The position numbers and the translations under genes are program-made. The notes under the pieces are model-generated. The model made no database searches. It was not told where the DNA came from and saw only the letters and a list, made by a program, of their open reading frames with translations. Shown here piece by piece: positions 5,643 to 53,086 of a stretch of 64,000 nt of DNA (position 1 is its first letter; every line of letters starts with the position of its first letter). Source of the DNA: an uncultured delta proteobacterium (GTDB lineage: Bacteria > Desulfobacterota > RBG-13-43-22); contig CAWJJC010000020.1 of the NCBI GenBank assembly GCA_963843145.1, forward strand, positions 544,001 to 608,000, given 5' to 3'.

Positions 5643-6968
<1,326 letters not shown>

Positions 6969-7066
6969 AGCAAGGTTACCGGGAAATCTCCAGAATGCCG
7001 GTAAAAAAACGAGATAGACTTTTTGCCCTAATTTTCTAAAATAATTGCTGATCAGGGAGATTACCC

Positions 7067-7513
7067 GTGCCGGAAGAAAAGTGCGTCTTTTGCGATATCG
7101 TGGCCGGGCGGGCCCCGGCCCATATCGTCCATGAGGATGCCCTATCCCTCTGCCTTCTGGACATCCATCCCTACACCAAGGGGCATTGCCTGGTCATCTC
7201 CAAACGGCATGTCCCCTGGTGGCATGAGTTATCCGATGAAGAAAACGCCAGCCTGTTCCAAGTGGCCCGGGTCGTCGCCAACCGGATGATGAAAAAACTG
7301 GAACCGGATTTCGTCTGCCTCTACGCCCGGGGCCGCCGGATTCCCCATACCCATCTCTTTCTGGTCCCGACTTACAGCGGCGATGTGTTGGACCGCTTCT
7401 TCAATGCCCTGGAGCACTTTCAGGAATCTCCCCAAGCCCTGGCCCGGCTCAAGGAACCGGAGGCCATGAAAGAAGCCGCGGAATGGCTTAAAATAAAAGA
7501 GGGCGACAGTTGA
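7067..7513 (+). CDS. HIT-family protein
   Basis: CVFCDIV zinc motif, DIHPYTKGHCLVISKRH, degenerate triad IPHTHLF. Confidence 0.85.
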   Translation: MPEEKCVFCDIVAGRAPAHIVHEDALSLCLLDIHPYTKGHCLVISKRHVPWWHELSDEENASLFQVARVVANRMMKKLEPDFVCLYARGRRIPHTHLFLVPTYSGDVLDRFFNALEHFQESPQALARLKEPEAMKEAAEWLKIKEGDS

Positions 7514-7595
7514 AGCTGTTTTTTCTCTTGACTCCGGATTGGTCTCATTTTAAATTATTCGAGCCTTAAAACTGTCTTAAAATAGATTTTAGTGT

Positions 7596-7646
7596 AGCGA
7601 TGGGGTTCGCTTAACCGTCCTGCGGAATCGGGACTGATAACTCCTG
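7596..7646 (+). ncRNA. Fluoride riboswitch (crcB motif)
   Basis: AGCGA-TGGGGT-TCGCT (P1), TAACC linker, GTCCTG/CGGGAC (P2), TGATAACTCCT 3' end; pseudoknot GGGGTT with AACTCC. Fits the known GAUGGxGUUC...CUGAUxACxCCU consensus. Confidence 0.9.
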
Positions 7647-7680
7647 CCGAGAAAATTATTGGCAGGAGTTTTTTATTTTT
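7639..7680 (+). terminator. Intrinsic terminator forming the riboswitch expression platform
   Basis: AACTCCTGCC/GGCAGGAGTT perfect 10-bp stem followed by a T tract; the 5' arm overlaps the pseudoknot strand. Confidence 0.9.
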
Positions 7681-7728
7681 GGTTAATTGGAATAGCGTCA
7701 CCGACAGAAGTCCGACGAGGGAGTCCTA

Positions 7729-9487
7729 ATGGTTCTCGACCGATACGCCTCGCTTAAAGAAGATATCGTAAAGTGCATCGACTCCATCTTGACCATCGAA
7801 AACCTATCCGCCGGCCTCTGTGAGGAACTCAAAGACAAACTCGAAAACAACGTGTTTAACCTCGTGGTCCTGGGCCAGTTTAAACGGGGGAAGACCAGCC
7901 TGATCAATGCGCTCCTGGGAGCAGAAATATTACCTACCGCTATCGTGCCGCTCACCTCTATTGCCACGATTCTCACATACGGCGAAACAATAAATATCAA
8001 AGTCCATTTCACTGACGGCCGGGTGATTGAAATTAAACCGGCAACCCTATCCCAATATGTAACCGAAAAAGGGAATCCCAAAAATGAGAAAGCGGTGCAG
8101 GAAGTCATCATGGCCTATCCCTCGACCTATTTAAAAGACGGGGTCCGGTTAATTGACACCCCCGGCGTCGGATCGGTTTATGAACATAATACCGATGTGG
8201 CTTATCAGTATTTACCCAAGTCGGATGCCGCCTTGTTTCTTCTCTCCGTGGATCAGCCGGTAAGCCAGGCCGAGCTAAATTTTTTAAAGGACGTCAAAGA
8301 ATATTCCCACCGGATATTCTTTCTCCAGAATAAGGCCGATTATGTCGGCCCCGAAGACCTGGCCGAATCCATTTTATTCTCCAAGCAAATTATTGAGGAA
8401 TCCCTGGGCAGCGAAGTCAAGATTTTCCCCCTTTCCGCCAAATGGGCTCTCCAAGGCAAATTGTCCGGAACAAAGGAACTCCTGGAGAAAAGTTTTCTTC
8501 CGGAATTTGAACTTATCCTGAATACCTTTCTGATGCAGGAAAAGGGACAGGTCCTGCTCCTTTCCGTGACGAACAATCTTCTTCGTTTGCTCGCTCAGGC
8601 CCGGTTCAAGCTTGAGCTGGAGATAAAATCGCTCGCCACGCCCCTGGAGGAACTGCACGAGAAGATAAAGATCTTCGAGAAAAAAAAGGAAGAGATCCTG
8701 GTCGAAAAGGAAGACTTCTGCCTTTTGCTGGATGGCGCGACGAAGAATATTATCAAGAACGTATTGGATGAAGACACGAGGACCTTCAGGCAGGGGCTGA
8801 TCCTTAAGGTATCGGAAAACATTGAAAGCAGCTACCAGGCGTATTCGGGCCTGTCCCTGAAGGAGATTCAGCGGCGTCTTGAAGGGCAGATGGTCGTCGG
8901 AAGTCAAACAGGGCTTTATGACCTGGCGCGTCCTGGAGGACGAGAAACTGTCAAAAACCTTCGAGGCGTCCTGCCGGCGGTTTATTACCAAGATCGACGA
9001 GACCGTGGATGCCCTCCTTAGCTTCTCGGCGGAACTCTTTGCGGTTCCCTTCGGTATCGTCAAGGCCGAGGCCCTTTGGTCATCGAAGTCGAGGTTTTAC
9101 TATAAATTCAAGGAGCAGCCGGGGGGGATTGAGATCGTGGCCTCATCGCTGACTTTGTTGCTGCCGAAATTCATCGGCGAAAAGATCATGCTGAAGAAGA
9201 TGAAGGAATACCTCCAGGGAGTGATCGACAGGCAGTCCGCCAGGATTGGTTCTGACTTTGAAGAAAGGCTGGATAAGAGTAAGCTGGCCTTCCGATGGGA
9301 GATGCTCCAAAGGATTGAGGCCACCATGGAAGGGATATCCAAAGCCATCGAAACCGGAATGAGCCGGAAATGGAAAGGCGAAAAGGCGGTGGAGGAACAA
9401 AAGGCCTTTCTCCTGGAAAAGGAAAAGGGAATGAGTGAAATCAAAGAAAAACTGATGCGGATACGGGAAAACTTGTCCATTAAATAG
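7729..9487 (+). CDS. Bacterial dynamin-like GTPase (one frameshift near 8890-8900; ORFs 7729-9021 and 8879-9487)
   Basis: G1 GQFKRGKT, G2 PLT, G3 DTPG, G4 NKAD, then a long helical stalk; the C-terminal helical part continues in another frame. Confidence 0.85.
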
Positions 9488-9869: not shown

Positions 9870-11255
9870 TCAGCGGAACACTACAAGTGAAATCAGGGCA
9901 CCGCTAAGCACAATCCAGATAGTGTCTATCTTAACAAAGCGCTGCACCAGAAAAGCGGCTATGGCCATGGAAATGGCCGGGATGTCCACCAGGGTATCTC
10001 CGGCCAGCTTGACCAGCACAACGACCAGCGTTCCGATAAAGGCTGCCACGATACCCCCGATTACCTGCTTTACGTATCCCACTTGACCTGCTTTCGCGTA
10101 TGGAACTGCCACTACGGTCGTCATGGCCCAGGCCGGAAAATACATATTCACCATTCCCACCACTGCGCCGATAACACCGGCAACCTTATAGCCGATAAAC
10201 GTGCCGATGATGGTCACAGGTCCGGGGGTGATCAGGCTCAAAGCCAGTGCTACGGCAAATTGTTGATTGGTCAGCCAGTTGAACTGATCGACCACGGTAT
10301 CCTGTATGAAGGGGAGCATGGCGTAGCCGCTGCCGAAAACCAGGGCACCGATCCGGAGGAATTTGTCGCCCATCTGCATCAACTCCGGCCTTAGATGGAT
10401 TAGAAACAGGTCGACGGCCAGAATCAGACATAACCAGACGACCAGCATGGCGAATTTTCGCCAATGCAGAGACAAGGGTGCCCGGCTGCAGGCAGAGACA
10501 TATTCTGAATTATAAACCGGTGCGGCAGGCTGCAGATCGGATTTGCCGGCAGCGGCCCCCGGCTGCATTTTCTGTGTACTTGTGCCCCTGCCGGGATTAG
10601 CGGCCAGAGAAGTGCCTTTCTTCCATAGGCTGTTCCAATTGCCTGTCCAGCGGGACAGCACCGGAAAACAATGCGTGAGCAGAACCATTACCAGACTGGT
10701 GCTCCCGGCAATGAGCAAAATTTTGATCACCCCCATCTTGAACCAGAAGACCATGGCGAAGCCGACGACTGCCATTATCCAGTTGAATATGGTTTTGACA
10801 CTGGTCCTCCAGAGATTGAGAATAGTGTTAGAGACCAGGCCGACCACCAAAGCTCCCAGGCCACGAAAGAGGCCCGAAACAATAGGCATCTCCCCATACT
10901 CAAGATAAAGATGGGAAAGAAACAGCATGAGTAGAAAACATGGAATCAGAAAGAAAATCGTGGCTACCGCCGCCCCTGGCAACCCGCGCAGCCGGAAGCC
11001 CAAATAGGATGAAAGGTTCACCGTAGGCGCGCCTGGCATCAGTTGAGCCAGCCCCAGCCCCTGCATGTACTCATCGTCGCTGAACCATCTCCTCTTCTTT
11101 GTCATCCAATTCTTGGCTTCCCCGAGAGCCGCCAGGCTGAAAGAGGCCAACCCGATGCCAAGAAATGTGCGGGCAATATCCCATAATCTCACCGGCGAAG
11201 AACCATCTGTGATGAGCGCTTTCTGCTTTTCCAAATAGATTTCTCGTTTGTTCAT
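9870..11255 (-). CDS. chrA: Chromate efflux transporter (long-chain CHR)
   Basis: Two CHR halves: GLGLAQLMPGAP and FGSGYAMLPFIQ...ITPGPV; polar linker between them. Confidence 0.88.
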   Translation of the reverse strand: MNKREIYLEKQKALITDGSSPVRLWDIARTFLGIGLASFSLAALGEAKNWMTKKRRWFSDDEYMQGLGLAQLMPGAPTVNLSSYLGFRLRGLPGAAVATIFFLIPCFLLMLFLSHLYLEYGEMPIVSGLFRGLGALVVGLVSNTILNLWRTSVKTIFNWIMAVVGFAMVFWFKMGVIKILLIAGSTSLVMVLLTHCFPVLSRWTGNWNSLWKKGTSLAANPGRGTSTQKMQPGAAAGKSDLQPAAPVYNSEYVSACSRAPLSLHWRKFAMLVVWLCLILAVDLFLIHLRPELMQMGDKFLRIGALVFGSGYAMLPFIQDTVVDQFNWLTNQQFAVALALSLITPGPVTIIGTFIGYKVAGVIGAVVGMVNMYFPAWAMTTVVAVPYAKAGQVGYVKQVIGGIVAAFIGTLVVVLVKLAGDTLVDIPAISMAIAAFLVQRFVKIDTIWIVLSGALISLVVFR

Positions 11256-11307
11256 TTATGGACTTTCATATTTCTCGTCGTTCAAGATCGCGTTTGAAGA
11301 AAGGTTC

Positions 11308-11775
11308 TCATTTTCTCGCCCTCATATCATGAACCCCGAGACCGCCCGAAGCAAACTGCTCTAAGATAATCTCGTAAAACTTTCTTTTTTGTGATGAGGT
11401 AAGCAGTTCCTGTTCTTCGAGGATATGTTCGATTACCTGTCGTTCTAATTCCGACTGGTGGTCGAGGACCTGCTTGGCTGCCTCATAGATTTCATTCCTG
11501 TCGGCGGGCTCGGAGAAAAGAACCCGGGCAAGCTCCGCCCGTTCGCGGCGCAGACTCTGCCTGATCCCCTGAACCCTGGGCAGGAAAGTCTGCCGAATCT
11601 CCTGAACCTTTTCCCGTTGCTTCTTTGAAAGGTCGGGGATAAAGTCCAGATAGCCCTTGATGTCTGAGAGATTGGCTTTATTTCGCCTGGAGACGAAATA
11701 GAGGCCGAACAACACAGCCGCCGCCAGGAACAGGGCCGTTAAGAACCCGGCAAAAAATGCGTAGGATACACTCAT
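11308..11775 (-). CDS. Periplasmic heavy-metal sensor / Spy-CpxP-CnrX-like protein
   Basis: N-terminal anchor; LSKKQREK...LTSSQKRKF (LTxxQ-type repeats); all-helical. Confidence 0.75.
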   Translation of the reverse strand: MSVSYAFFAGFLTALFLAAAVLFGLYFVSRRNKANLSDIKGYLDFIPDLSKKQREKVQEIRQTFLPRVQGIRQSLRRERAELARVLFSEPADRNEIYEAAKQVLDHQSELERQVIEHILEEQELLTSSQKRKFYEIILEQFASGGLGVHDMRARK

Positions 11776-12206
11776 GGCAACATCCTTATTCTTTGCTTCG
11801 GTGGTTCAAGAAGCCTGAAATAAATAAAACTCATGGAAAGGGGCGGATAGTCGCTGAATTCCTCCAGGGTTCGAATGCCTTGACGGGGTCTCGAAGGAAT
11901 GAGGCTGAATATTTCTTCGGAAAGCCGCTCCAGGGCAAATTTAAAACGGGATGCGATCCGGGCAGGTTTCTCATCAGCCATCTTCGAGGCCGCTATCGCG
12001 GCCACCACAACCCTTCGGGAGAAATCCGGACTCGGATCATTTCCCGGCAGCCCATACACTAATTTATCTATTTTCCTGAATTCAAGAAGGCTTTCCCGGC
12101 ATTGGGGACAATCTTCAAGGTGTTTTTCAATAAACCGGAAGGTGGCGCCTTCCATCTCGTTGTCCATAAAGGCAGAGAGTTTTCTTTTGATCTGAGAGCA
12201 GTCCAT
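11772..12206 (-). CDS. Zinc-finger (zf-HC2) anti-sigma factor
   Basis: MDCSQIKRKLSAFMDNE...HLEDCPQC; lies directly downstream of an ECF sigma. Confidence 0.85.
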   Translation of the reverse strand: MDCSQIKRKLSAFMDNEMEGATFRFIEKHLEDCPQCRESLLEFRKIDKLVYGLPGNDPSPDFSRRVVVAAIAASKMADEKPARIASRFKFALERLSEEIFSLIPSRPRQGIRTLEEFSDYPPLSMSFIYFRLLEPPKQRIRMLP

Positions 12207-14161: not shown

Positions 14162-17100
14162 TTAAAGAATATTCAATCTCCCGACGATGGGGCCACTTCT
14201 CCGGCAGCGGCATTTGATCGGCCTCGAGCTTGGCGATGACGTCTTCAGCCAGACGACCGCATCCTCAAAAAGGGTATAAAATATGGGTACATAGAGGAGG
14301 TTAGAAAAGGTCGAAACCATCAGACCGCCTATGGCGACTACGGCCAGGGGAGAAAGGCGCTCCAAGCCGATGGCCGTTCCAGGGCGATGGGAAGCATCCC
14401 CACCGCCGTGCGAAAGCGGTCATGAGAATGGGTCTGGTGCGGACTCTCACACTTTCGCGTACGGCCTCGACTGTCGACAGGCCCCGTTCTTTGGCCTTTT
14501 CGATAAAGTCGATCAAGAGGATGGAGTTCTTTACGACGATGCCGGCTAAGAGTATGAGACCCATATTGGCCGAGATGGACTGCGTTTTGTTGGTGATCAG
14601 CAATGACCAGATGGCGCCTATCATGGCCAGGGGAATGGCCGTCATGATAGTCAGGGGATGGATAAAAGAGCGGAAGGCCGGAATGAGAGAAAAATAAAGG
14701 AGCACCATAGCGATGAGAAGGGCCGAGTTAAAGGCCGCGTGTTTTCGCTACTCTGCTTGGCGTCCCCTCCTGGCTGATGGTATCCGGGAGGGAGCTTGAT
14801 CCCCTTGAGGGACTTTTGCACATTGGCCATAATATGGGAGAGGTCGGCTTTTCCCGAAAGCCGTAAACATCGATGCTGTTCCGCATGGACTGCCGGGTGA
14901 GGAGGGTTGGCACATAGTTCGTAGTGATAGCGCCTAAAAGAGAAAGAGAGGATATCTCCCGAGAGGGGTCTGGACCGGAAAGATTCAAGCGTCGGCGATA
15001 CTTCGTGGACCGTATTTTTCAGCAGCCGGATCCGACCGGAAAACCGTCTTCGCCGGCCACGCGGAAGAGTGACGACACCCCGCCTTGTACGGCAGCCTGC
15101 ACCTGGGCGGCAATCTCCTTGCGGAGAGATGCCATAGTAGCTGCGAACGCTCGCGATTGGCAATAAAAAGGATTTCTTTCTTATCCAAAGCCCATGAAAG
15201 GGAGACGGACTTTAATCCCCGGAAGTCTGCAAAAGGCGTTTTTTACTTCCTCTCCGATCCGGTGAGAACCTTCTTGGATCGGTCCCGCTCACCATTGCGT
15301 CTACATGGAACGGATGCGTCGACATGGGCGTAGCGCCGTAATCGAAGACATCGATCGATTTGAGTCCCGGTGATCTTCAAGAAATTCTCGATTCATGCCT
15401 TTTCGATGTCCCACATGCCCTGCTTCCGATGAAAACGGTCGACCAGATTGACCGTAATGTTTCCCTGCTGTGGGTTCTTGCCGCTTCCAAAGGAGACCAC
15501 GGAGGGCTCGGAGCCGAGGGTGGCGCTGATGGATACCACGCCCTCCTGCGCTTTAATAATATCTTCCATTTTCTTGAGAGAATATCGTTGGACTGAGCCA
15601 AAGAGCGTGTTGGCATCGGCCTCGAAGTTGATTTTGATGATGCCCGTGTCCATGGGGGGCTGACGTTTCGACCTACCAGGGGCTGAACATACTTGCAGCG
15701 GTCACCGAGCAACAGAACAGCGGCCAGGCCGACAAAAAAAGAAGCGGTGCTTAAGCGCGGTATCGAGGCCGCCGCCGAAGAAGTCCCGTATACCGTTGAG
15801 CAGGCCGTCGCTCCCATGGGTAATCCACTGCCTCGAACCTGCTTTTTCCTTGGTTTGCTCCAGGATATAGGGGGCCAAGATGGGGATGATGGTCACCGAA
15901 ACGACATAGGAGGCAACCAGGGCAATCGAAAGGGACAGCGTCAAGGGACGAAGCACGGTCTGGACATACCCGCCAATGAAGATAATGGGCAGGAGCACCA
16001 CAATGGTGGCATAGGTGCCGGAAAATATGGCCAGCATGACCTCTTCGGTTCCCCCGGCAACGAGGTCTTTCAGATTCTTACCTTCGACTGGTAGTGCCGC
16101 TCAATGTTCTCGATCACCACGATGGCGTCATCCAGAAGCATTCCCACGGCCAGGATCACTCCGGTCAGGGTGACCATGTGGAATTCAAAACCAAACAGCC
16201 ACATAACGGCAAAGGTGATCAGATAGGTGAAGGGGATGGACACGGCACAGAGTGCCATAGCCCTTAGGTTTCCTAAAAAGAGGAATATGACGATAACGGT
16301 AACGATGACGGCTTCTCGAAGGGCTCCGAGCATGTCGTCGACGCTCCGGGTTATCAGGTTTTTCTGGGTATAGCTGACCTCGAAGTCGAATAGAGGGGTA
16401 AGGCGGCCTTAAGCGCGGGGAGATTGGCTTCGACGGCCAGAATAGGATCCAGGGTATGGCCGCTTTCGGTTCGAAGGATATTGATTCCTATGGCCTCTTT
16501 ACCGTTACCATGATAGGCGGATTGCGGTTCTTGTTCCGCGGGTTGAATTTTGGCTACATCCCTCAGGTGGACAATACCGCTATCCCGCCGGGCAATCACC
16601 AGATCGGCCAGTTCGCTCCGGGTAGCCGCCCCTTCCGTCTTGAACAGGTATTGGCCCTCTTTCCTAATGATAATCCCTTGAGGGATATTTTGATTCTGGG
16701 CGGATAACGGCGGCCATGACGTCGGTGATACCGATACCGAACCGGCTCAGGCAGTCCGGCTGCACGGAGACTGGGACTTCCGGCTGGTTGTGCGCCGAAC
16801 ACCTCCACATTGCCAACGTCGGGAATCCTGCAGAAGCTCCTCCTTGATCTGGTTGTCGGCCAGCTCCCGTACCTTCCGTAAGTCCAACAGATATCCCGGT
16901 TTCGGGAGTTAAGGCCAGGGTCATAGTCGGCTGGGTGGCCTGACTGATCTTAAATATCTGAGGAGGCCGAATCCCCTGAGGAAGACGGGCCGTAACCTTG
17001 CTTAAGGCATTGGCCACATCGGTGGCCGCCGCTTCCAGACCCTTTTGCGTATTCGAACTCCGCCAGGACCACCGACACCTCATCTTTGGAAGTGGAGGTT

Positions 17101-17343
17101 ACCGTCCGCACCTGGTCAATACTCGAGATTTCCTTCTCGATGACCCTGGTGATGTCCGTCTCCACATCTGGCCGCCGCCGCACCGGGCATGACGGTTACC
17201 ACGCTGATCTGAGGGCGGTCGGTATCAGGGAATAGGTTGAAGGGCATTTTTTGATACCCCATGATCCCCACGACAGAAAGGAGAATAACAAAAGACAGGA
17301 CCAGGTGGGGCTTTTCGATGTACCGCCTGACGAATTTCATCAT
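14162..17343 (-). pseudogene. RND efflux permease (AcrB/CusA family), broken by many frameshifts
   Basis: Collinear fragments: FNLFPDTDRPQISVVT, AVGMLLDDAIVVIENIERH, GLILLAGIVVKNSILLIDF...RTRPILMT, PLAVVAIGGLMVST. The breaks may be sequencing errors. Confidence 0.85.
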
Positions 17344-18479
17344 TTGCCCCCAGCTTTCGACATAGTGATTTTCATACCCTCGGAAAGGTTGAGGAGCTTG
17401 TTCTCCTGGGCGAGAGCCACCTGCGCACCGGCGGCGATATCTCCTTTCACCGCGGCCTGGCCCTTGGCGCTGCCGAGCACCTCAACCGGGCGAATGTGGA
17501 TAACCCCTTGGTTGACCAGGTAAATAAAAGCGCCTTTGGCCGTACGGACAATGGCGTTTTCAGGCACAATGATCCCGGATACACTGGATGTCACTATATC
17601 CACCCCGACCGTCGATCCGGTAGGAAGTCCGAAGGGGCTCTTCGGCAGAATGGCCTCGACGGAATCCAAAAAATTTTTGCCCAGGGCCGGATACACCTTT
17701 GTGACTGTCGCCGGCATAGTGCTCTGCCCGCTGCCGATCACCAGTTTCGTTCCCGGTCTTACCTGCCCGGCCAACTCCTGTGGTATCTGAACCAGAATCT
17801 TGACCGGAGAGGGCTGCTGGATGGTCAAAATGGTCTTACCGGGCAGGGCCAAGTCCCCCGGTTCAGCCGACCGTTTGGTCACCACACCGGAGAAAGGCGC
17901 CGATATCCGGGCATATCCGACCTGGAGCCTGGCGGCCTCCACGTTTCTTTCCAGTCCACGGATGCTGTCTGCATAGGCGTCTACCGCGGATTTTGCACTG
18001 TCGCGGGTCGCTTGGGAGCGTTCCAGGGCCTCTTTGGAGATCGCTCCCGCCTTATAAAGTTGCTCGTCCCGTTCGGTGACCGAACGCTGGGTTTCGTAAA
18101 CGCTTCGCGCCCCTGCCAGCCGCTGCTTACTGGCGAGCACCTCTGCCTGGCTCGATTCGGCCCTCGTTGACAGCTCACGGGCGTCGATGACGGAGACGAC
18201 TTCCCCCTTAGCGACCGTGTCACCCTCCCGCTTGCTGATCGAAACGATATAACCGGTAATGCGGGGGGCGAGATCAGCCAGAACGTATGGCTGGATCTCC
18301 CCAAGCTGCCTGTTCGTAACCTCGATGGTACCTTGAGCGGCCTGGGCGGTCTGGAGGGCCGGCGGCTGAGATGAGGGCTTGGGCAAAATGGCCAAGGCCA
18401 TTTGTTTGTTGATGACGATGGCTAGCCCTCCCAGAATGAGAGCCAGGGCTATTATGACCAGAACGATTTTTTTCTTCAT
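17340..18479 (-). CDS. RND periplasmic adaptor (membrane fusion protein)
   Basis: N-terminal anchor; lipoyl halves (APRITGYIVSISKREGDTV; ISAPFSGVV); IVPENAI. Confidence 0.92.
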   Translation of the reverse strand: MKKKIVLVIIALALILGGLAIVINKQMALAILPKPSSQPPALQTAQAAQGTIEVTNRQLGEIQPYVLADLAPRITGYIVSISKREGDTVAKGEVVSVIDARELSTRAESSQAEVLASKQRLAGARSVYETQRSVTERDEQLYKAGAISKEALERSQATRDSAKSAVDAYADSIRGLERNVEAARLQVGYARISAPFSGVVTKRSAEPGDLALPGKTILTIQQPSPVKILVQIPQELAGQVRPGTKLVIGSGQSTMPATVTKVYPALGKNFLDSVEAILPKSPFGLPTGSTVGVDIVTSSVSGIIVPENAIVRTAKGAFIYLVNQGVIHIRPVEVLGSAKGQAAVKGDIAAGAQVALAQENKLLNLSEGMKITMSKAGGK

Positions 18480-51920: not shown

Positions 51921-52037
51921 AAGAAGTCCGAATCCGGGAAACCGTCAGGTGAGGTAAGAATCAAATATCCGGAAAAGGGCCTTTGTTTTTTGTTTTTTGT
52001 TGACAAAAAAGGGTTTTCAATATAAACAGATCATAAA

Positions 52038-52200
52038 AATAAAGGTGCCCTTTCGGGCTTAAAAGGGAAGACGGTTTCAGTCCGTCACGGTCCCGCCGCT
52101 GTATCCGGGGACGAATTCCACAACAGCCACTTTCCTCCTCAGGCGGTTGGGAAGGCGTGGAAAGTAGAAAGATCCGGGAGTCAGAAGACCTGCCTTTGTC
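52038..52200 (+). ncRNA. Cobalamin riboswitch
   Basis: AAAGGTGCCC...AAAAGGGAAGACGG...CCCGCCGCTGT...GCCACT...GGGAAGGC...GAGTCAGAAGACCTGCC B12 box. Confidence 0.95.
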
Positions 52201-52261
52201 GAAGAATCCAAAGCCCGTGGACGCAGGGGTTCGACTTTAAGGATCAAGGAAGCTGGGTGCC

Positions 52262-52842: not shown

Positions 52843-52907
52843 ACCACCACTTTTTTTAAATAGGACGATTAAGGAGCTGGTGATGAAAAAGTAAACCTCT
52901 ATAAATA

Positions 52908-53053
52908 TTTGCCGGATTCAGGAAGTCTGGATAAGCCAGCACTGCCCCGCAACTGTCGACAGAACGAAATCCCAATAGGCCACTGCCCGCTTCAGGCGGG
53001 TGGGAAGGTGGGGAGAGTAGGGCGCTGTCAGTCAGGAGACTGGTCCGGCAAAA
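52908..53053 (+). ncRNA. Cobalamin riboswitch (second; compact 5' end)
   Basis: P1 TTTGCCGGA/TCCGGCAAA; AGGAAGTCTGG...GCCCCGCAACTGT...GCCACTG...GGGAAGGT...AGTCAGGAGACTGG. Confidence 0.85.
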
Positions 53054-53086
53054 AAACAACATTCTTTCGAGGGAAAGGAGAAAAAG

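What the first reader, a model, noticed from the sequence alone, without database searches (positions are those of the whole stretch)
7596..9487. Fluoride riboswitch directly switching ON a dynamin-like GTPase
Seen: a complete crcB-type aptamer whose pseudoknot strand (AACTCC) is also the 5' arm of a perfect 10-bp terminator, about 50 nt before a ~585-codon dynamin-like gene. The gene stands alone, since the next ORF is convergent. Known: this architecture is a fluoride-induced ON switch; characterised outputs are mainly fluoride exporters (Fluc, CLC-F) and fluoride-inhibited enzymes, whereas bacterial dynamin-like proteins act in membrane repair/fusion and phage protection. Inference: an uncharacterised fluoride response via membrane remodelling, or compensation for a GTPase trapped by GDP-MgFx. 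I know of no experimental description of this pairing, though it may appear in bioinformatic surveys. One frameshift needs checking.
Basis: partly seen in the sequence, partly recalled or inferred. Interest (0 to 1): 0.85.

Follow-up and report, generated by a model that had tools for sequence, protein, structure and literature searches.

The report
Fluoride riboswitch controls a bacterial dynamin
A fluoride-sensing RNA switch sits directly in front of a dynamin-like membrane GTPase, and the same pairing recurs in well over a hundred related loci, which points to an undescribed branch of the bacterial fluoride response and gives a bacterial dynamin a defined inducer.

Summary
Rfam RF01734 matches window 7587-7653 at 42.1 bits (cut-off 34). 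The pseudoknot 3' strand AACTCC is the 5' arm of a terminator at 7639-7670 with a T-run. A 585-codon dynamin-like gene follows at 7729-9487 (Dynamin_N 1e-29). It is broken by one extra G at 8899/8900.

The pairing is not chance. A fluoride riboswitch lies within 300 nt upstream in:
- 36 of 44 assessable homologous genome loci;
- 51 of 77 metagenome loci, down to 31% identity;
- 13 of 18 loci in a second, distant class.

Some homologues use terminators and some use Shine-Dalgarno sequestration, and both give ON logic. In several genomes this is the only fluoride riboswitch. Neighbouring riboswitch-controlled genes are mainly Na+/H+ exchangers. The window's genome has no CrcB match.

The protein is a BDLP/IniA-type dynamin-like protein. 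A role in membrane protection under fluoride is inferred, not shown. Whether the window's frameshift is real could not be settled. Seven literature searches found no description of the pairing. Supplements and Baker et al. 2012 could not be read.

The parts
7528..7556 (+). Promoter-like site TTGACT-17-TAAATT in front of the leader
   Evidence: This is a consensus match only: 3 were found in 3.2 kb and 3.0 were expected in shuffles. Its position between the HIT gene stop (7513) and the aptamer fits a separate transcription unit.
7587..7653 (+). Fluoride riboswitch aptamer (crcB motif, RF01734): P1, P3 and the pseudoknot
   Evidence: 42.1 bits against a gathering score of 34, full model; in 52 aptamers of this gene neighbourhood, 98.1% of cells are paired, 9 of 13 pairs have changes on both sides, and 0 of 500 shuffles reach this.
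7639..7680 (+). Intrinsic terminator (stem 7639-7670 plus T-run). Its 5' arm overlaps the pseudoknot 3' strand AACTCC, which makes it the OFF state of an ON switch.
   Evidence: The same arrangement occurs, with compensatory stem changes, in 22 of 39 leaders and as long hairpins in 4 more.
7717..7723 (+). Shine-Dalgarno-like GAGGGAG, 5 nt before the ATG
   Evidence: Read directly from the sequence.
7729..9487 (+). Dynamin-like GTPase gene of the BDLP/IniA type, 585 codons if read through. The assembly splits it into frames 7729-9021 and 8879-9487.
   Evidence: Intact orthologues of 582-599 aa occur in most related loci.
7861..8331 (+). G domain (Dynamin_N, residues 45-201) with G1 GQFKRGKT, G2 PLT, G3 DTPG and G4 NKAD
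   Evidence: These motif residues are invariant or nearly invariant in 36 orthologues.
8899..8900 (+). Frameshift: GG where six homologues have a single G
   Evidence: No read or contig covers it.
9041..9178 (+). Tip loop of the helical stalk, rich in conserved aromatic and lysine residues. It is the candidate membrane-binding 'paddle'.
   Evidence: residues 438-483 of the modelled orthologue are non-helical with pLDDT 36-47, between two long helices. W450, F456, Y457, F460 and P464 are nearly invariant; no transmembrane segment. The membrane role is inferred.
5685..6968 (+). Enolase, the genome's only copy, upstream on the same strand and not behind a riboswitch here
   Evidence: Enolase also adjoins the DLP in L009 and L178. 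Enolase is riboswitch-controlled in 1 of 42 neighbouring genes.
7067..7513 (+). HIT-family protein between the enolase and the riboswitch
   Evidence: A HIT protein also lies next to the DLP in L025 and L006, downstream there.
9870..11255 (-). Convergent ChrA-type chromate transporter, which bounds the unit

Best explanation
This is a single-gene transcription unit in which a fluoride riboswitch turns on a dynamin-like membrane GTPase.

The switch. Without fluoride, the AACTCC strand pairs into the terminator and transcription stops before the gene. With fluoride bound (with Mg2+), that strand is held in the aptamer pseudoknot, the terminator cannot form, and the gene is transcribed. This logic follows from the architecture and is conserved. 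It was not measured.

The protein. It is a soluble DLP of about 585 aa of the BDLP/IniA/mitofusin type. It has a complete G domain, a long helical stalk and a conserved aromatic/basic tip loop.

Inferred role. I infer that it binds the cytoplasmic membrane and uses GTP-driven remodelling (tethering, fusion or fission) to keep the membrane intact while fluoride poisons envelope and energy metabolism. The precedents are IniA, named 'isoniazid inducible' in its PDB entry, and, from my recall, DynA.

Place in the regulon. It belongs to a fluoride regulon that in these lineages is built around Na+/H+ exchanger-type transporters, USP and sometimes enolase or CrcB. In most carriers examined no CrcB was found.

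The window's own copy carries a 1-nt insertion that is either an assembly error or a very recent inactivation.
For: Regulation
- The aptamer is above the Rfam cut-off.
- The terminator shares the pseudoknot strand.
- The same riboswitch lies within 300 nt upstream in 36 of 44 assessable genome loci, with 5 more farther upstream on the same strand and 3 without.
- It does so in 51 of 77 assessable metagenome loci at 31-81% identity, with 10 farther and 16 without, using my model R1. Rfam confirmed 16 of the 20 divergent loci re-checked.
- It does so in 26 of 33 profile-picked genomes of the phylum sample.
- It does so in 13 of 18 loci of a second class, with 3 farther and 2 without.
- Riboswitch-linked rows lie on both sides of the midpoint root of a 114-protein tree.
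- The ON logic is kept by two different platforms. Terminators begin at AACTCC in 22 of 39 leaders, with compensatory stem changes, plus 4 long hairpins. Shine-Dalgarno sequestration occurs in L032 and L034.
- In G046, G062, G091, G151, G313, G314 and G315 it is the only riboswitch found in the genome.

Protein
- Dynamin_N at 1e-29. G1-G4 residues are invariant or nearly invariant in 36 orthologues.
- The profile matches BDLP (7e-37), Campylobacter DLP1 (2e-24) and IniA (3e-22).
- The AF2 model has pLDDT 78.9 and pTM 0.74. Foldseek gives BDLP at 2e-18 (TM 0.62-0.67) and IniA at 2e-16.
- dN/dS is 0.13-0.21, which indicates purifying selection.

Fluoride context
- Neighbouring riboswitch-controlled genes are Na_H_Exchanger (14 of 42), MFS 3, NADHdh 3, enolase 1, Usp 1 and CrcB 1.
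- In L049 the DLP is in a riboswitch-CrcB-DUF190-zinc-finger-DLP operon.
- In G170 the DLP and CrcB are divergent, each with its own riboswitch.

Effector rather than compensated target
- The terminator design implies low expression without fluoride.
- The window's genome has no close paralogue.
- A riboswitch-less subclade sits beside a lytic transglycosylase, which is an envelope context.
- The abstract start of PMC12700350, seen in a search listing, says fluoride triggers lysis in diverse bacteria.
Against: - No expression, binding or phenotype data exist. No RNA run was listed.
- Membrane binding is inferred from a low-confidence loop (pLDDT 36-47). There is no transmembrane segment.
- Nothing links the protein chemically to fluoride.
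- 16 of 77 metagenome loci and some whole subclades lack the riboswitch, so the protein also works outside fluoride control.
- In the window's own family, 3 of 5 copies are disrupted: the window, L025 with two 1-nt insertions, and L006 with an IS between riboswitch and gene. The gene may therefore be dispensable or decaying there.
- The genome sets overlap, since they draw on the same species collection. Related genomes are not independent. The metagenome loci were picked by two family-specific peptide patterns.
Confidence: 0.6

Rival explanations
1. Compensation or decoy. Fluoride with Mg2+ or Al3+ forms GDP-metal-fluoride complexes that trap dynamin-type G domains in a transition-like dimer. 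The cell makes more of the GTPase to replace trapped molecules, as is proposed for enolase and pyrophosphatase, or to soak up the complex.
For: Relatives have been solved in a 'transition-like state': mitofusin-1 5gom and Fzo1 9kff (titles). That these states use metal fluorides is my recall. Known riboswitch-controlled genes include fluoride-inhibited enzymes; the table in PMC11777429 lists enolase and pyrophosphatase (passages read). Enolase adjoins the DLP in the window, L009 and L178.
Against: A strong terminator keeps the gene off without fluoride, so there is no constitutive pool that would need topping up. The window's genome has no close paralogue for it to back up. A protein cannot stoichiometrically buffer the amounts of fluoride that a riboswitch of this class senses; a high-micromolar KD is cited in PMC11777429.
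Confidence: 0.15
2. Transporter partner. The DLP acts on the co-regulated membrane transporters (Na+/H+ exchanger type, Mrp, MFS, CrcB), for example in their insertion, clustering or turnover, or it acts in shedding vesicles. It is not a general membrane repair factor.
For: The order riboswitch, Na_H_Exchanger, Usp, riboswitch, DLP recurs (L009, L011, L013, L021, L023). L041 has a riboswitch-Na_H_Exchanger-DLP operon. In L035 an Mrp-type subunit abuts the DLP. 14 of 42 neighbouring riboswitch-controlled genes are Na_H_Exchanger. The window genome's only other riboswitch precedes such an exchanger.
Against: In the window and in many loci the DLP stands alone, with the exchanger elsewhere (300 kb away in the window's contig). 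Gene neighbourhood alone is weak evidence for a physical partnership. No known DLP is described as a transporter chaperone, to my recall.
Confidence: 0.12
3. The window's copy is a dead relic. The riboswitch-DLP unit is real as a family, but in this organism the gene is a pseudogene and does nothing.
For: There is a 1-nt insertion at 8899/8900. Two of the four other copies in the same family are also disrupted, one by a transposase. Other broken genes occur in the window and genome: an AcrB-type gene in at least 5 frames at 14304-17481 and a split CLC gene.
Against: There is only one lesion. The read-through is 585 codons with no stop. dN/dS after the lesion (0.15-0.21) is like that before it and like that of intact pairs. 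The aptamer and terminator are intact. All three small indels in this family are single extra G's, which could be a base-calling artefact. No reads cover the site.
Confidence: 0.45
4. Anti-phage defence dynamin of the LeoA/LeoBC 'Eleos' type that only happens to lie behind a riboswitch.
For: Weak PADLOC matches to LeoA (62 bits) and LeoBC (52 bits). LeoA is among the Foldseek matches (4aur, 4.6e-8).
Against: The matches are at the level of general DLP homology. There is no second Leo-type gene beside it. Fluoride control is conserved across more than 100 loci, and the neighbours are fluoride-regulon genes.
Confidence: 0.03
5. Chance juxtaposition of a riboswitch and an unrelated gene.
For: None beyond the single locus.
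Against: See the counts, and the platform conservation.
Confidence: 0.01

Closest known systems
Fluoride riboswitch (crcB motif, Rfam RF01734), transcriptional ON type
   Same: It has the full aptamer with P1, P3 and the pseudoknot, and a terminator that overlaps the 3' part of the motif. Weinberg et al. 2010 described this overlap for many crcB RNAs and predicted that ligand raises expression (PMC2864571, crcB section read).
   Different: The controlled gene is a dynamin-like GTPase. The gene classes named in the texts I could read were mutS, K+/Cl- transport, formate hydrogen lyase, CrcB, CLC-F, enolase, pyrophosphatase, phosphate genes and USP.
Nostoc punctiforme BDLP (PDB 2j68, 2j69, 2w6d)
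   Same: It is the best sequence and fold match: profile E 7e-37 over residues 36-429, Foldseek E 2e-18 with TM 0.62-0.67. The P-loop context is the same, VLGQFKRGKT against VLGDMKRGKS. It shares the G domain plus helical neck and trunk with a tip region.
   Different: Identity is 17-19%. The length is 584 aa against 695 aa for the BDLP chain. The tip is a loop of about 45 residues of low model confidence, not a modelled paddle. Expression is under an RNA ligand switch.
Mycobacterial IniA (PDB 6j72, 6j73)
   Same: It is a DLP of about 600 aa whose PDB name says it is drug-inducible ('Isoniazid inducible gene protein IniA'). Profile E 3e-22; Foldseek E 2e-16 with TM about 0.6. It is the precedent for a stress-induced bacterial dynamin.
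   Different: By my recall IniA is part of the iniBAC operon and responds to cell-wall inhibitors through protein regulators. Here the gene is solitary and the signal is fluoride, read by RNA.
Paired bacterial DLPs (Campylobacter DLP1/DLP2, 5owv), B. subtilis DynA, LeoA
   Same: They share dynamin-superfamily G domains and helical stalks.
   Different: Those are tandem or fused pairs, or part of a three-gene Leo cluster. This family is a single gene. The window's genome does hold a separate, distant tandem pair at C17:42779-44910 without any link to it.
Known fluoride-regulon effectors (Fluc/CrcB, CLC-F, enolase, pyrophosphatase, Na+/H+ antiporters, USP)
   Same: They share the regulator, and they share neighbourhoods in many loci.
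   Different: Those effectors export fluoride, replace inhibited enzymes or move ions. A membrane-remodelling GTPase is a different kind of effector.

Membership tests
Fluoride riboswitch (RF01734) | Score at or above the curated Rfam gathering threshold over the full model | tested here: met
   42.1 bits against 34, model positions 1-64 of 64.
Fluoride riboswitch (RF01734) | P1 and P3 helices and the long-range pseudoknot, supported by covariation | tested here: met
   Measured on 52 aptamers from these loci: 98.1% of cells paired, 9 of 13 pairs with changes on both sides, and the pseudoknot covaries at 3 of 6 pairs. 0 of 500 shuffles reach this, and slid controls give 35-56% paired. The sequences are related, so the shuffle count is not a probability.
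Fluoride riboswitch (RF01734) | Expression platform that competes with the aptamer (ON switch) | tested here: met
   The 5' arm of the terminator is the pseudoknot 3' strand. The arrangement is conserved with compensatory changes.
Fluoride riboswitch (RF01734) | Selective binding of fluoride and fluoride-dependent gene expression | not testable with these tools
   This needs in-line probing, transcription assays or reporters with NaF.
Bacterial dynamin-like protein (BDLP/IniA/mitofusin class) | Dynamin-type G domain with G1-G4 motifs | tested here: met
   Dynamin_N at 104 bits against a cut-off of 27. G49, K52-K55, T76, D143-G146, K202 and D204 are invariant, and T56, N201 and A203 nearly invariant, in 36 orthologues. 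All are present in the window's translation.
Bacterial dynamin-like protein (BDLP/IniA/mitofusin class) | Helical neck and trunk (stalk) following and flanking the G domain | tested here: met
   The AF2 model of the 86%-identical orthologue has helices at 257-303, 306-371, 377-437, 484-549 and 551-583. Full-length Foldseek matches to BDLP and IniA.
Bacterial dynamin-like protein (BDLP/IniA/mitofusin class) | Membrane-binding paddle or lipid-interacting loop at the stalk tip | tested here: inconclusive
   A conserved aromatic/lysine-rich loop lies at residues 438-483, but pLDDT there is only 36-47. There is no transmembrane segment.
Bacterial dynamin-like protein (BDLP/IniA/mitofusin class) | GTP hydrolysis stimulated by G-domain dimerisation; membrane tethering, fusion or fission | not testable with these tools
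   This needs biochemistry.
LeoA/LeoBC ('Eleos') defence dynamins | LeoA together with a LeoBC-type partner gene in one cluster | tested here: not met
   Only weak PADLOC scores of 62 and 52 bits on the one protein. There is no second DLP gene beside it in the window or in the loci inspected.

The most novel reading that the evidence does not exclude
In Nitrospirota and other anaerobe lineages that mostly lack the Fluc (CrcB) channel, the fluoride response is built on a dedicated dynamin-like GTPase together with CPA-type cation/proton exchangers. The DLP is a fluoride-specific membrane-remodelling effector. Its G-domain cycle may itself be gated by metal-fluoride complexes, so that fluoride both induces the protein through RNA and locks it into its tethering-competent state. 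That would be the first bacterial dynamin with a defined chemical inducer and physiological role, and a new class of fluoride-tolerance mechanism.
Probability: 0.3. Interest if true: 0.9.

Novelty: new variant of a known kind. Interest (0 to 1): 0.8.

Why it matters
It matters for three reasons.

1. Bacterial dynamins. What bacterial dynamin-like proteins are for is a long-standing open question, and most have no known inducing signal. Here a whole family comes with a ligand-specific switch, so adding NaF becomes a direct experimental handle.

2. Fluoride biology. The textbook response is export (Fluc, CLC-F) plus replacement of inhibited enzymes. A conserved membrane-remodelling effector would say that membrane damage is a primary, selected-against consequence of fluoride. 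This effector is often the only riboswitch-controlled gene in a genome. It occurs mostly in genomes where no CrcB was found: 6 of the 27 strong carriers have CrcB, against 119 of the 274 other genomes (the genomes are related and not independent).

3. Annotation. Databases name these proteins only 'dynamin family protein' or 'Dynamin N-terminal domain-containing protein' (automatic cluster names). No NCBIfam equivalog reaches its cut-off. The riboswitch link gives them a testable functional label.

Tried and rejected
Reads at the frameshift. One run search listed 10 DNA runs, all with small shares (0.29 at most), and no RNA holder. Laying X1-X4 gave only short, low-depth contigs, and none covers 8863-9210. 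The frameshift therefore stays unresolved, and nothing can be said about expression.

Assembly quality. I looked for other broken genes as a proxy. An AcrB-type gene is shattered at 14304-17481 and a CLC gene is split on contig C18. Many long genes in the window are intact. This does not decide between assembly error and real decay.

Literature. Baker et al. 2012 is not held, by PMC id or by PubMed id. Its gene list and supplements, and the additional files of Weinberg et al. 2010, may already list such GTPases. The searches gave:
- 'fluoride riboswitch' + dynamin: 0 papers.
- fluoride + riboswitch + dynamin-like: 0 papers.
- 'fluoride riboswitch' + GTPase: 8 papers, none relevant by title and abstract start. 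One was checked by passages.
- 'crcB motif': 9 papers. Two were read by passages.
- 'fluoride riboswitch' + antiporter + 'universal stress': 2 papers. One was read by passages.
- dynamin + 'fluoride resistance': 1 irrelevant paper.
- dynamin + 'fluoride toxicity' + bacteria: 4 irrelevant papers.

Rejected readings.
- Chance juxtaposition, because of the conservation counts.
- Defence dynamin, because the PADLOC scores are weak and there is no partner gene.
- A hidden riboswitch before the enolase: none found at E up to 1.
- A second enolase copy: none.

Wasted step. A phylum search centred on the 'Desulfobacterales'-labelled MAG G312 returned the same genomes and coordinates as the window's phylum sample. 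It adds nothing, except that this MAG is filed in the same phylum by the tool.

Not used.

My simple terminator finder missed long hairpins. Four were checked by folding. L012, L026, L027 and L037 show the matching 3' arm but were not folded. L024, L033, L036, L042, L044, L045 and L046 have no platform assigned.
Full report
WHAT IS AT THE SITE

Rfam's fluoride riboswitch model RF01734 matches window 7587-7653 on the + strand over its full length. The score is 42.1 bits against a gathering score of 34, with E 2.6e-8.

A terminator-like hairpin spans 7639-7670, with 12 pairs of which the inner 10 are perfect, followed by TTTTATTTTT. It dominates the centroid fold of the leader. Its 5' arm starts with AACTCC, the 3' strand of the aptamer pseudoknot. 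Aptamer and terminator are therefore mutually exclusive, which is the classic ON design that Weinberg et al. 2010 described for many crcB RNAs (PMC2864571, crcB section).

A promoter-like TTGACT-17-TAAATT lies at 7528-7556. It is a consensus match only and no more frequent than in shuffles. GAGGGAG lies 5 nt before the ATG at 7729.

The ORF from 7729 encodes a Dynamin_N G domain at residues 45-201 (E 1e-29) with the G1-G4 motifs. It leaves its frame near 8900, and the C-terminal 200 residues continue in the next frame to 9487. Alignment with six homologues shows one extra G at 8899/8900.

The next gene is a convergent ChrA-type transporter at 9870-11255. Upstream on the same strand lie the genome's only enolase (5685-6968) and a HIT protein (7067-7513). 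No second riboswitch is found in the window, even at E up to 1.

THE PAIRING IS CONSERVED

A pattern scan of one genome per species returned 46 loci that encode a relative at 37-89% identity. Most carry Nitrospirota labels. Rfam at gathering threshold gave the following:
- a fluoride riboswitch on the gene's strand within 300 nt upstream in 36 loci;
- one farther upstream on the same strand in 5 (L006, L033, L041, L046, L049);
- none in 3 (L035, L039, L043);
- 2 loci that could not be judged (L047 is cut at the gene, and L048 has only 157 nt upstream).

A profile scan of metagenome contigs returned 80 more loci at 31-81% identity. I built a covariance model from 52 Rfam-verified aptamers. It found a riboswitch within 300 nt upstream in 51 loci, farther upstream in 10 and none in 16, and 3 loci had too little upstream sequence. 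Rfam itself confirmed the proximal site in 16 of the 20 most divergent loci re-checked. It did not confirm L112, L118, L120 and L123.

In an evenly drawn sample of 301 genomes of the window's phylum, 34 have a profile match at E <= 1e-60. I scanned the 33 other than the window's genome whole with RF01734:
- a riboswitch within about 300 nt upstream in 26 (22 of the 26 strong matches and 4 of the 7 weaker ones);
- farther upstream in 2 (G018, G049);
- none adjacent in 5 (G098, G131, G295, G302, G305).

These genomes hold only 61 riboswitches over the cut-off in all. In G046, G062, G091 and G151 the only one found is the one before this gene. This sample comes from the same species collection as the first set, so it overlaps that set. 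Its value is that the genes were picked by profile score and that whole genomes were scanned.

In a second class, reached through the Ignavibacteriaceae-labelled MAG, 17 of 251 genomes carry the gene at 18 loci. Rfam finds the riboswitch within about 100 nt upstream in 13, at 350-1090 nt upstream in 3 and none in 2.

On a FastTree of 114 of these proteins, riboswitch-linked rows occupy both sides of the midpoint root. Riboswitch-less rows form a few clades, and at least 8 changes of state are needed. The largest riboswitch-less clade has 9 rows. In the four of its loci that I scanned, the gene sits beside a divergent SLT_2 lytic transglycosylase.

THE SWITCH LOGIC IS CONSERVED THROUGH CHANGE

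In the 52-aptamer alignment, P1, P3 and the pseudoknot are 98.1% paired. Nine of 13 pairs have changes on both sides, and controls slid by 1-3 columns give 35-56% paired.

In 22 of 39 leaders a hairpin of 11-14 pairs followed by a T-run starts at the AACTCC strand, and the stems differ by compensatory changes. Four more leaders (L007, L008, L010, L019) have long, strongly stable hairpins that start at the same place and end in the T-run. L032 and L034 have no terminator. There the same strand pairs with the Shine-Dalgarno sequence a few bases before the start codon.

Two different platforms that give the same ON logic before the same gene family argue that fluoride induction is what is selected.

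WHAT THE PROTEIN IS

Most homologues are intact ORFs of 582-599 aa. Thirty-six were aligned, with a mean column identity of 67%.

A profile of them matches:
- Nostoc BDLP (7e-37);
- Campylobacter DLP1 (2e-24) and DLP2 (3e-15);
- IniA (3e-22);
- SynDLP and the mitofusins, more weakly.

AlphaFold2 on the orthologue from L004 (86% identical over the 388 aligned residues) gave pLDDT 78.9 and pTM 0.74. The model has:
- a G domain;
- three long helices (257-437);
- a low-confidence loop (438-483);
- two more long helices.

Foldseek's best matches are BDLP (2e-18) and IniA (2e-16), followed by other DLPs and the mitofusins. The tip loop keeps nearly invariant aromatic residues and lysines. There is no transmembrane segment.

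No NCBIfam equivalog reaches its cut-off. PADLOC gives only weak LeoA and LeoBC scores. Atlas clusters carry only generic dynamin names.

The wider library holds 4723 representatives at E <= 1e-30, and the top 150 are all full-length-type matches of at least 438 bits. The family is therefore large.

FLUORIDE CONTEXT

Additional riboswitches in the same loci precede the following, out of 42 genes scanned:
- Na_H_Exchanger proteins (14);
- MFS (3);
- NADHdh-type subunits (3);
- prenyltransferase-like proteins (3);
- enolase (1), Usp (1) and CrcB (1).

The rest have no Pfam match at 1e-5.

Recurrent arrangements are:
- riboswitch, exchanger, Usp, riboswitch, DLP;
- riboswitch, exchanger, DLP;
- riboswitch, CrcB, DUF190, zinc-finger protein, DLP.

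In G170 the DLP and CrcB are divergent, each with its own riboswitch.

The window's genome (97.9% complete, 6.9% contaminated) has one other fluoride riboswitch, before a Na+/H+ exchanger-type gene. It has no CrcB match. CrcB was found in 10 of the 34 DLP-bearing genomes of the phylum sample, and in 6 of the 27 strong ones. It was found in 115 of the 267 genomes without the DLP. The genomes are related, so this is only a hint.

HOW IT MOST LIKELY WORKS

Shown by sequence analysis: a fluoride aptamer, a competing terminator, a competent-looking BDLP/IniA-type GTPase under purifying selection (dN/dS 0.13-0.21), and a conserved link between them.

Inferred:
- Fluoride switches the gene on.
- The protein binds the cytoplasmic membrane through its tip loop.
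- GTP-driven remodelling protects or repairs the membrane during fluoride stress, in analogy to the drug-inducible IniA.

I prefer this to 'compensation for a poisoned GTPase' for two reasons. The terminator design keeps the gene off without fluoride, and the genome has no close paralogue. The compensation or decoy idea, a role with the co-regulated exchangers, and direct gating of the G domain by metal fluorides all remain open.

THE WINDOW'S OWN COPY

The single extra G is the only lesion. Read through, the gene has 585 codons and no stop. dN/dS after the lesion is like that before it.

Yet in the window's small class (21 genomes, one family) only 5 genomes have the gene, and 3 of those copies are disrupted:
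- the window, by one extra G;
- L025, by two single-G insertions;
- L006, by an ISAZ013-type transposase inserted between the riboswitch and the gene, with the first codons lost.

Other broken genes exist in this assembly. No reads cover the site. I put an assembly error and a real recent inactivation at about even odds.

NOVELTY

The riboswitch class and the protein class are both known. Their conserved pairing was not found in seven full-text searches or in the passages I read. A 2024 review's table of fluoride-resistance functions lists no GTPase (PMC11777429, passages). Baker et al. 2012 and all supplementary gene lists could not be read, so a bare listing there cannot be excluded.

I rate this a new variant of a known kind, with high interest, because it gives a bacterial dynamin family a specific inducer and adds a new kind of effector to the fluoride response.

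Noticed in passing
window 14304-17481 (-): An AcrB/RND-type transporter gene is shattered over at least five reading frames. The Pfam ACR_tran profile positions recovered are 3-55, 97-144, 207-311, 315-415 and 866-979, on separate ORFs. It is either a decayed pseudogene or a stretch of poor consensus.
   Followed up: partly
window 52026-52211 and 52897-53062 (+): Two cobalamin riboswitches (RF00174, 111.7 and 73.8 bits) lie 0.9 kb apart on the same strand.
   Followed up: no
G000:C20:244657-244720 (-), locus L002: The genome's only other fluoride riboswitch (37.1 bits) has a terminator and precedes a Na+/H+ exchanger-like membrane protein. No CrcB match was found in the genome or in the 9 other sampled genomes of its family. 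This raises the question of what exports fluoride there.
   Followed up: partly
window 7067-7513; L025:4848-5285; L006:4824-5279: A HIT-family protein lies next to the dynamin-like gene in the window (upstream) and in two close relatives (downstream). Enolase adjoins the gene in the window, in L009 (downstream) and in L178 (directly upstream on the same strand). The linkage is loose but recurrent.
   Followed up: partly
L006:1740-2723 (-): A DDE_Tnp_ISAZ013 transposase (E 1e-137) is inserted between the riboswitch (L006:1541-1607) and the dynamin-like gene. It displaces the switch by 1.4 kb and replaces the first codons of the gene.
   Followed up: yes
L025:6781-6845 and 6922-6986 (-): Two fluoride riboswitches in tandem, 77 nt apart, precede one Na_H_Exchanger gene. 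This is a possible tandem (digital) switch.
   Followed up: no
L081, L082, L085, L090 (upstream, - strand): The largest riboswitch-less subclade of the family (9 rows on the tree) sits beside a divergently transcribed SLT_2 lytic transglycosylase in the four loci scanned. This is a cell-envelope context.
   Followed up: partly
L168, L170, L174, L176, L185; L049, L179, L182: In the second class, DUF6062 proteins recur just downstream of the dynamin-like gene. In L176 one lies behind its own fluoriboswitch; the riboswitch-fronted 201-aa ORFs of L174 and L185 had no DUF6062 match, but a DUF6062 ORF follows in L174. A small C2H2 zinc-finger protein of 91-117 aa recurs between the riboswitch and the gene. 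Both are candidate new members of the fluoride regulon.
   Followed up: partly
G000:C18:534-1563 (-): A CLC-type channel gene is split into two overlapping frames (Pfam positions 1-166 and 162-344). It is another frameshifted gene in this assembly.
   Followed up: no
window 9870-12203 (-): A metal-stress cluster is convergent with the dynamin-like gene: a ChrA-type chromate transporter, a Metal_resist (LTXXQ-like) protein and a zf-HC2 anti-sigma-like protein.
   Followed up: no
L026:4810-5156; L116:881-1360; L122:1926-2405; L063:4527-5025: Several fluoride riboswitches precede small ORFs of 93-135 aa. The L026 ORF had no Pfam match when scanned alone. In the pooled scan no per-member table was returned, so the status of the others is not known.
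   Followed up: no
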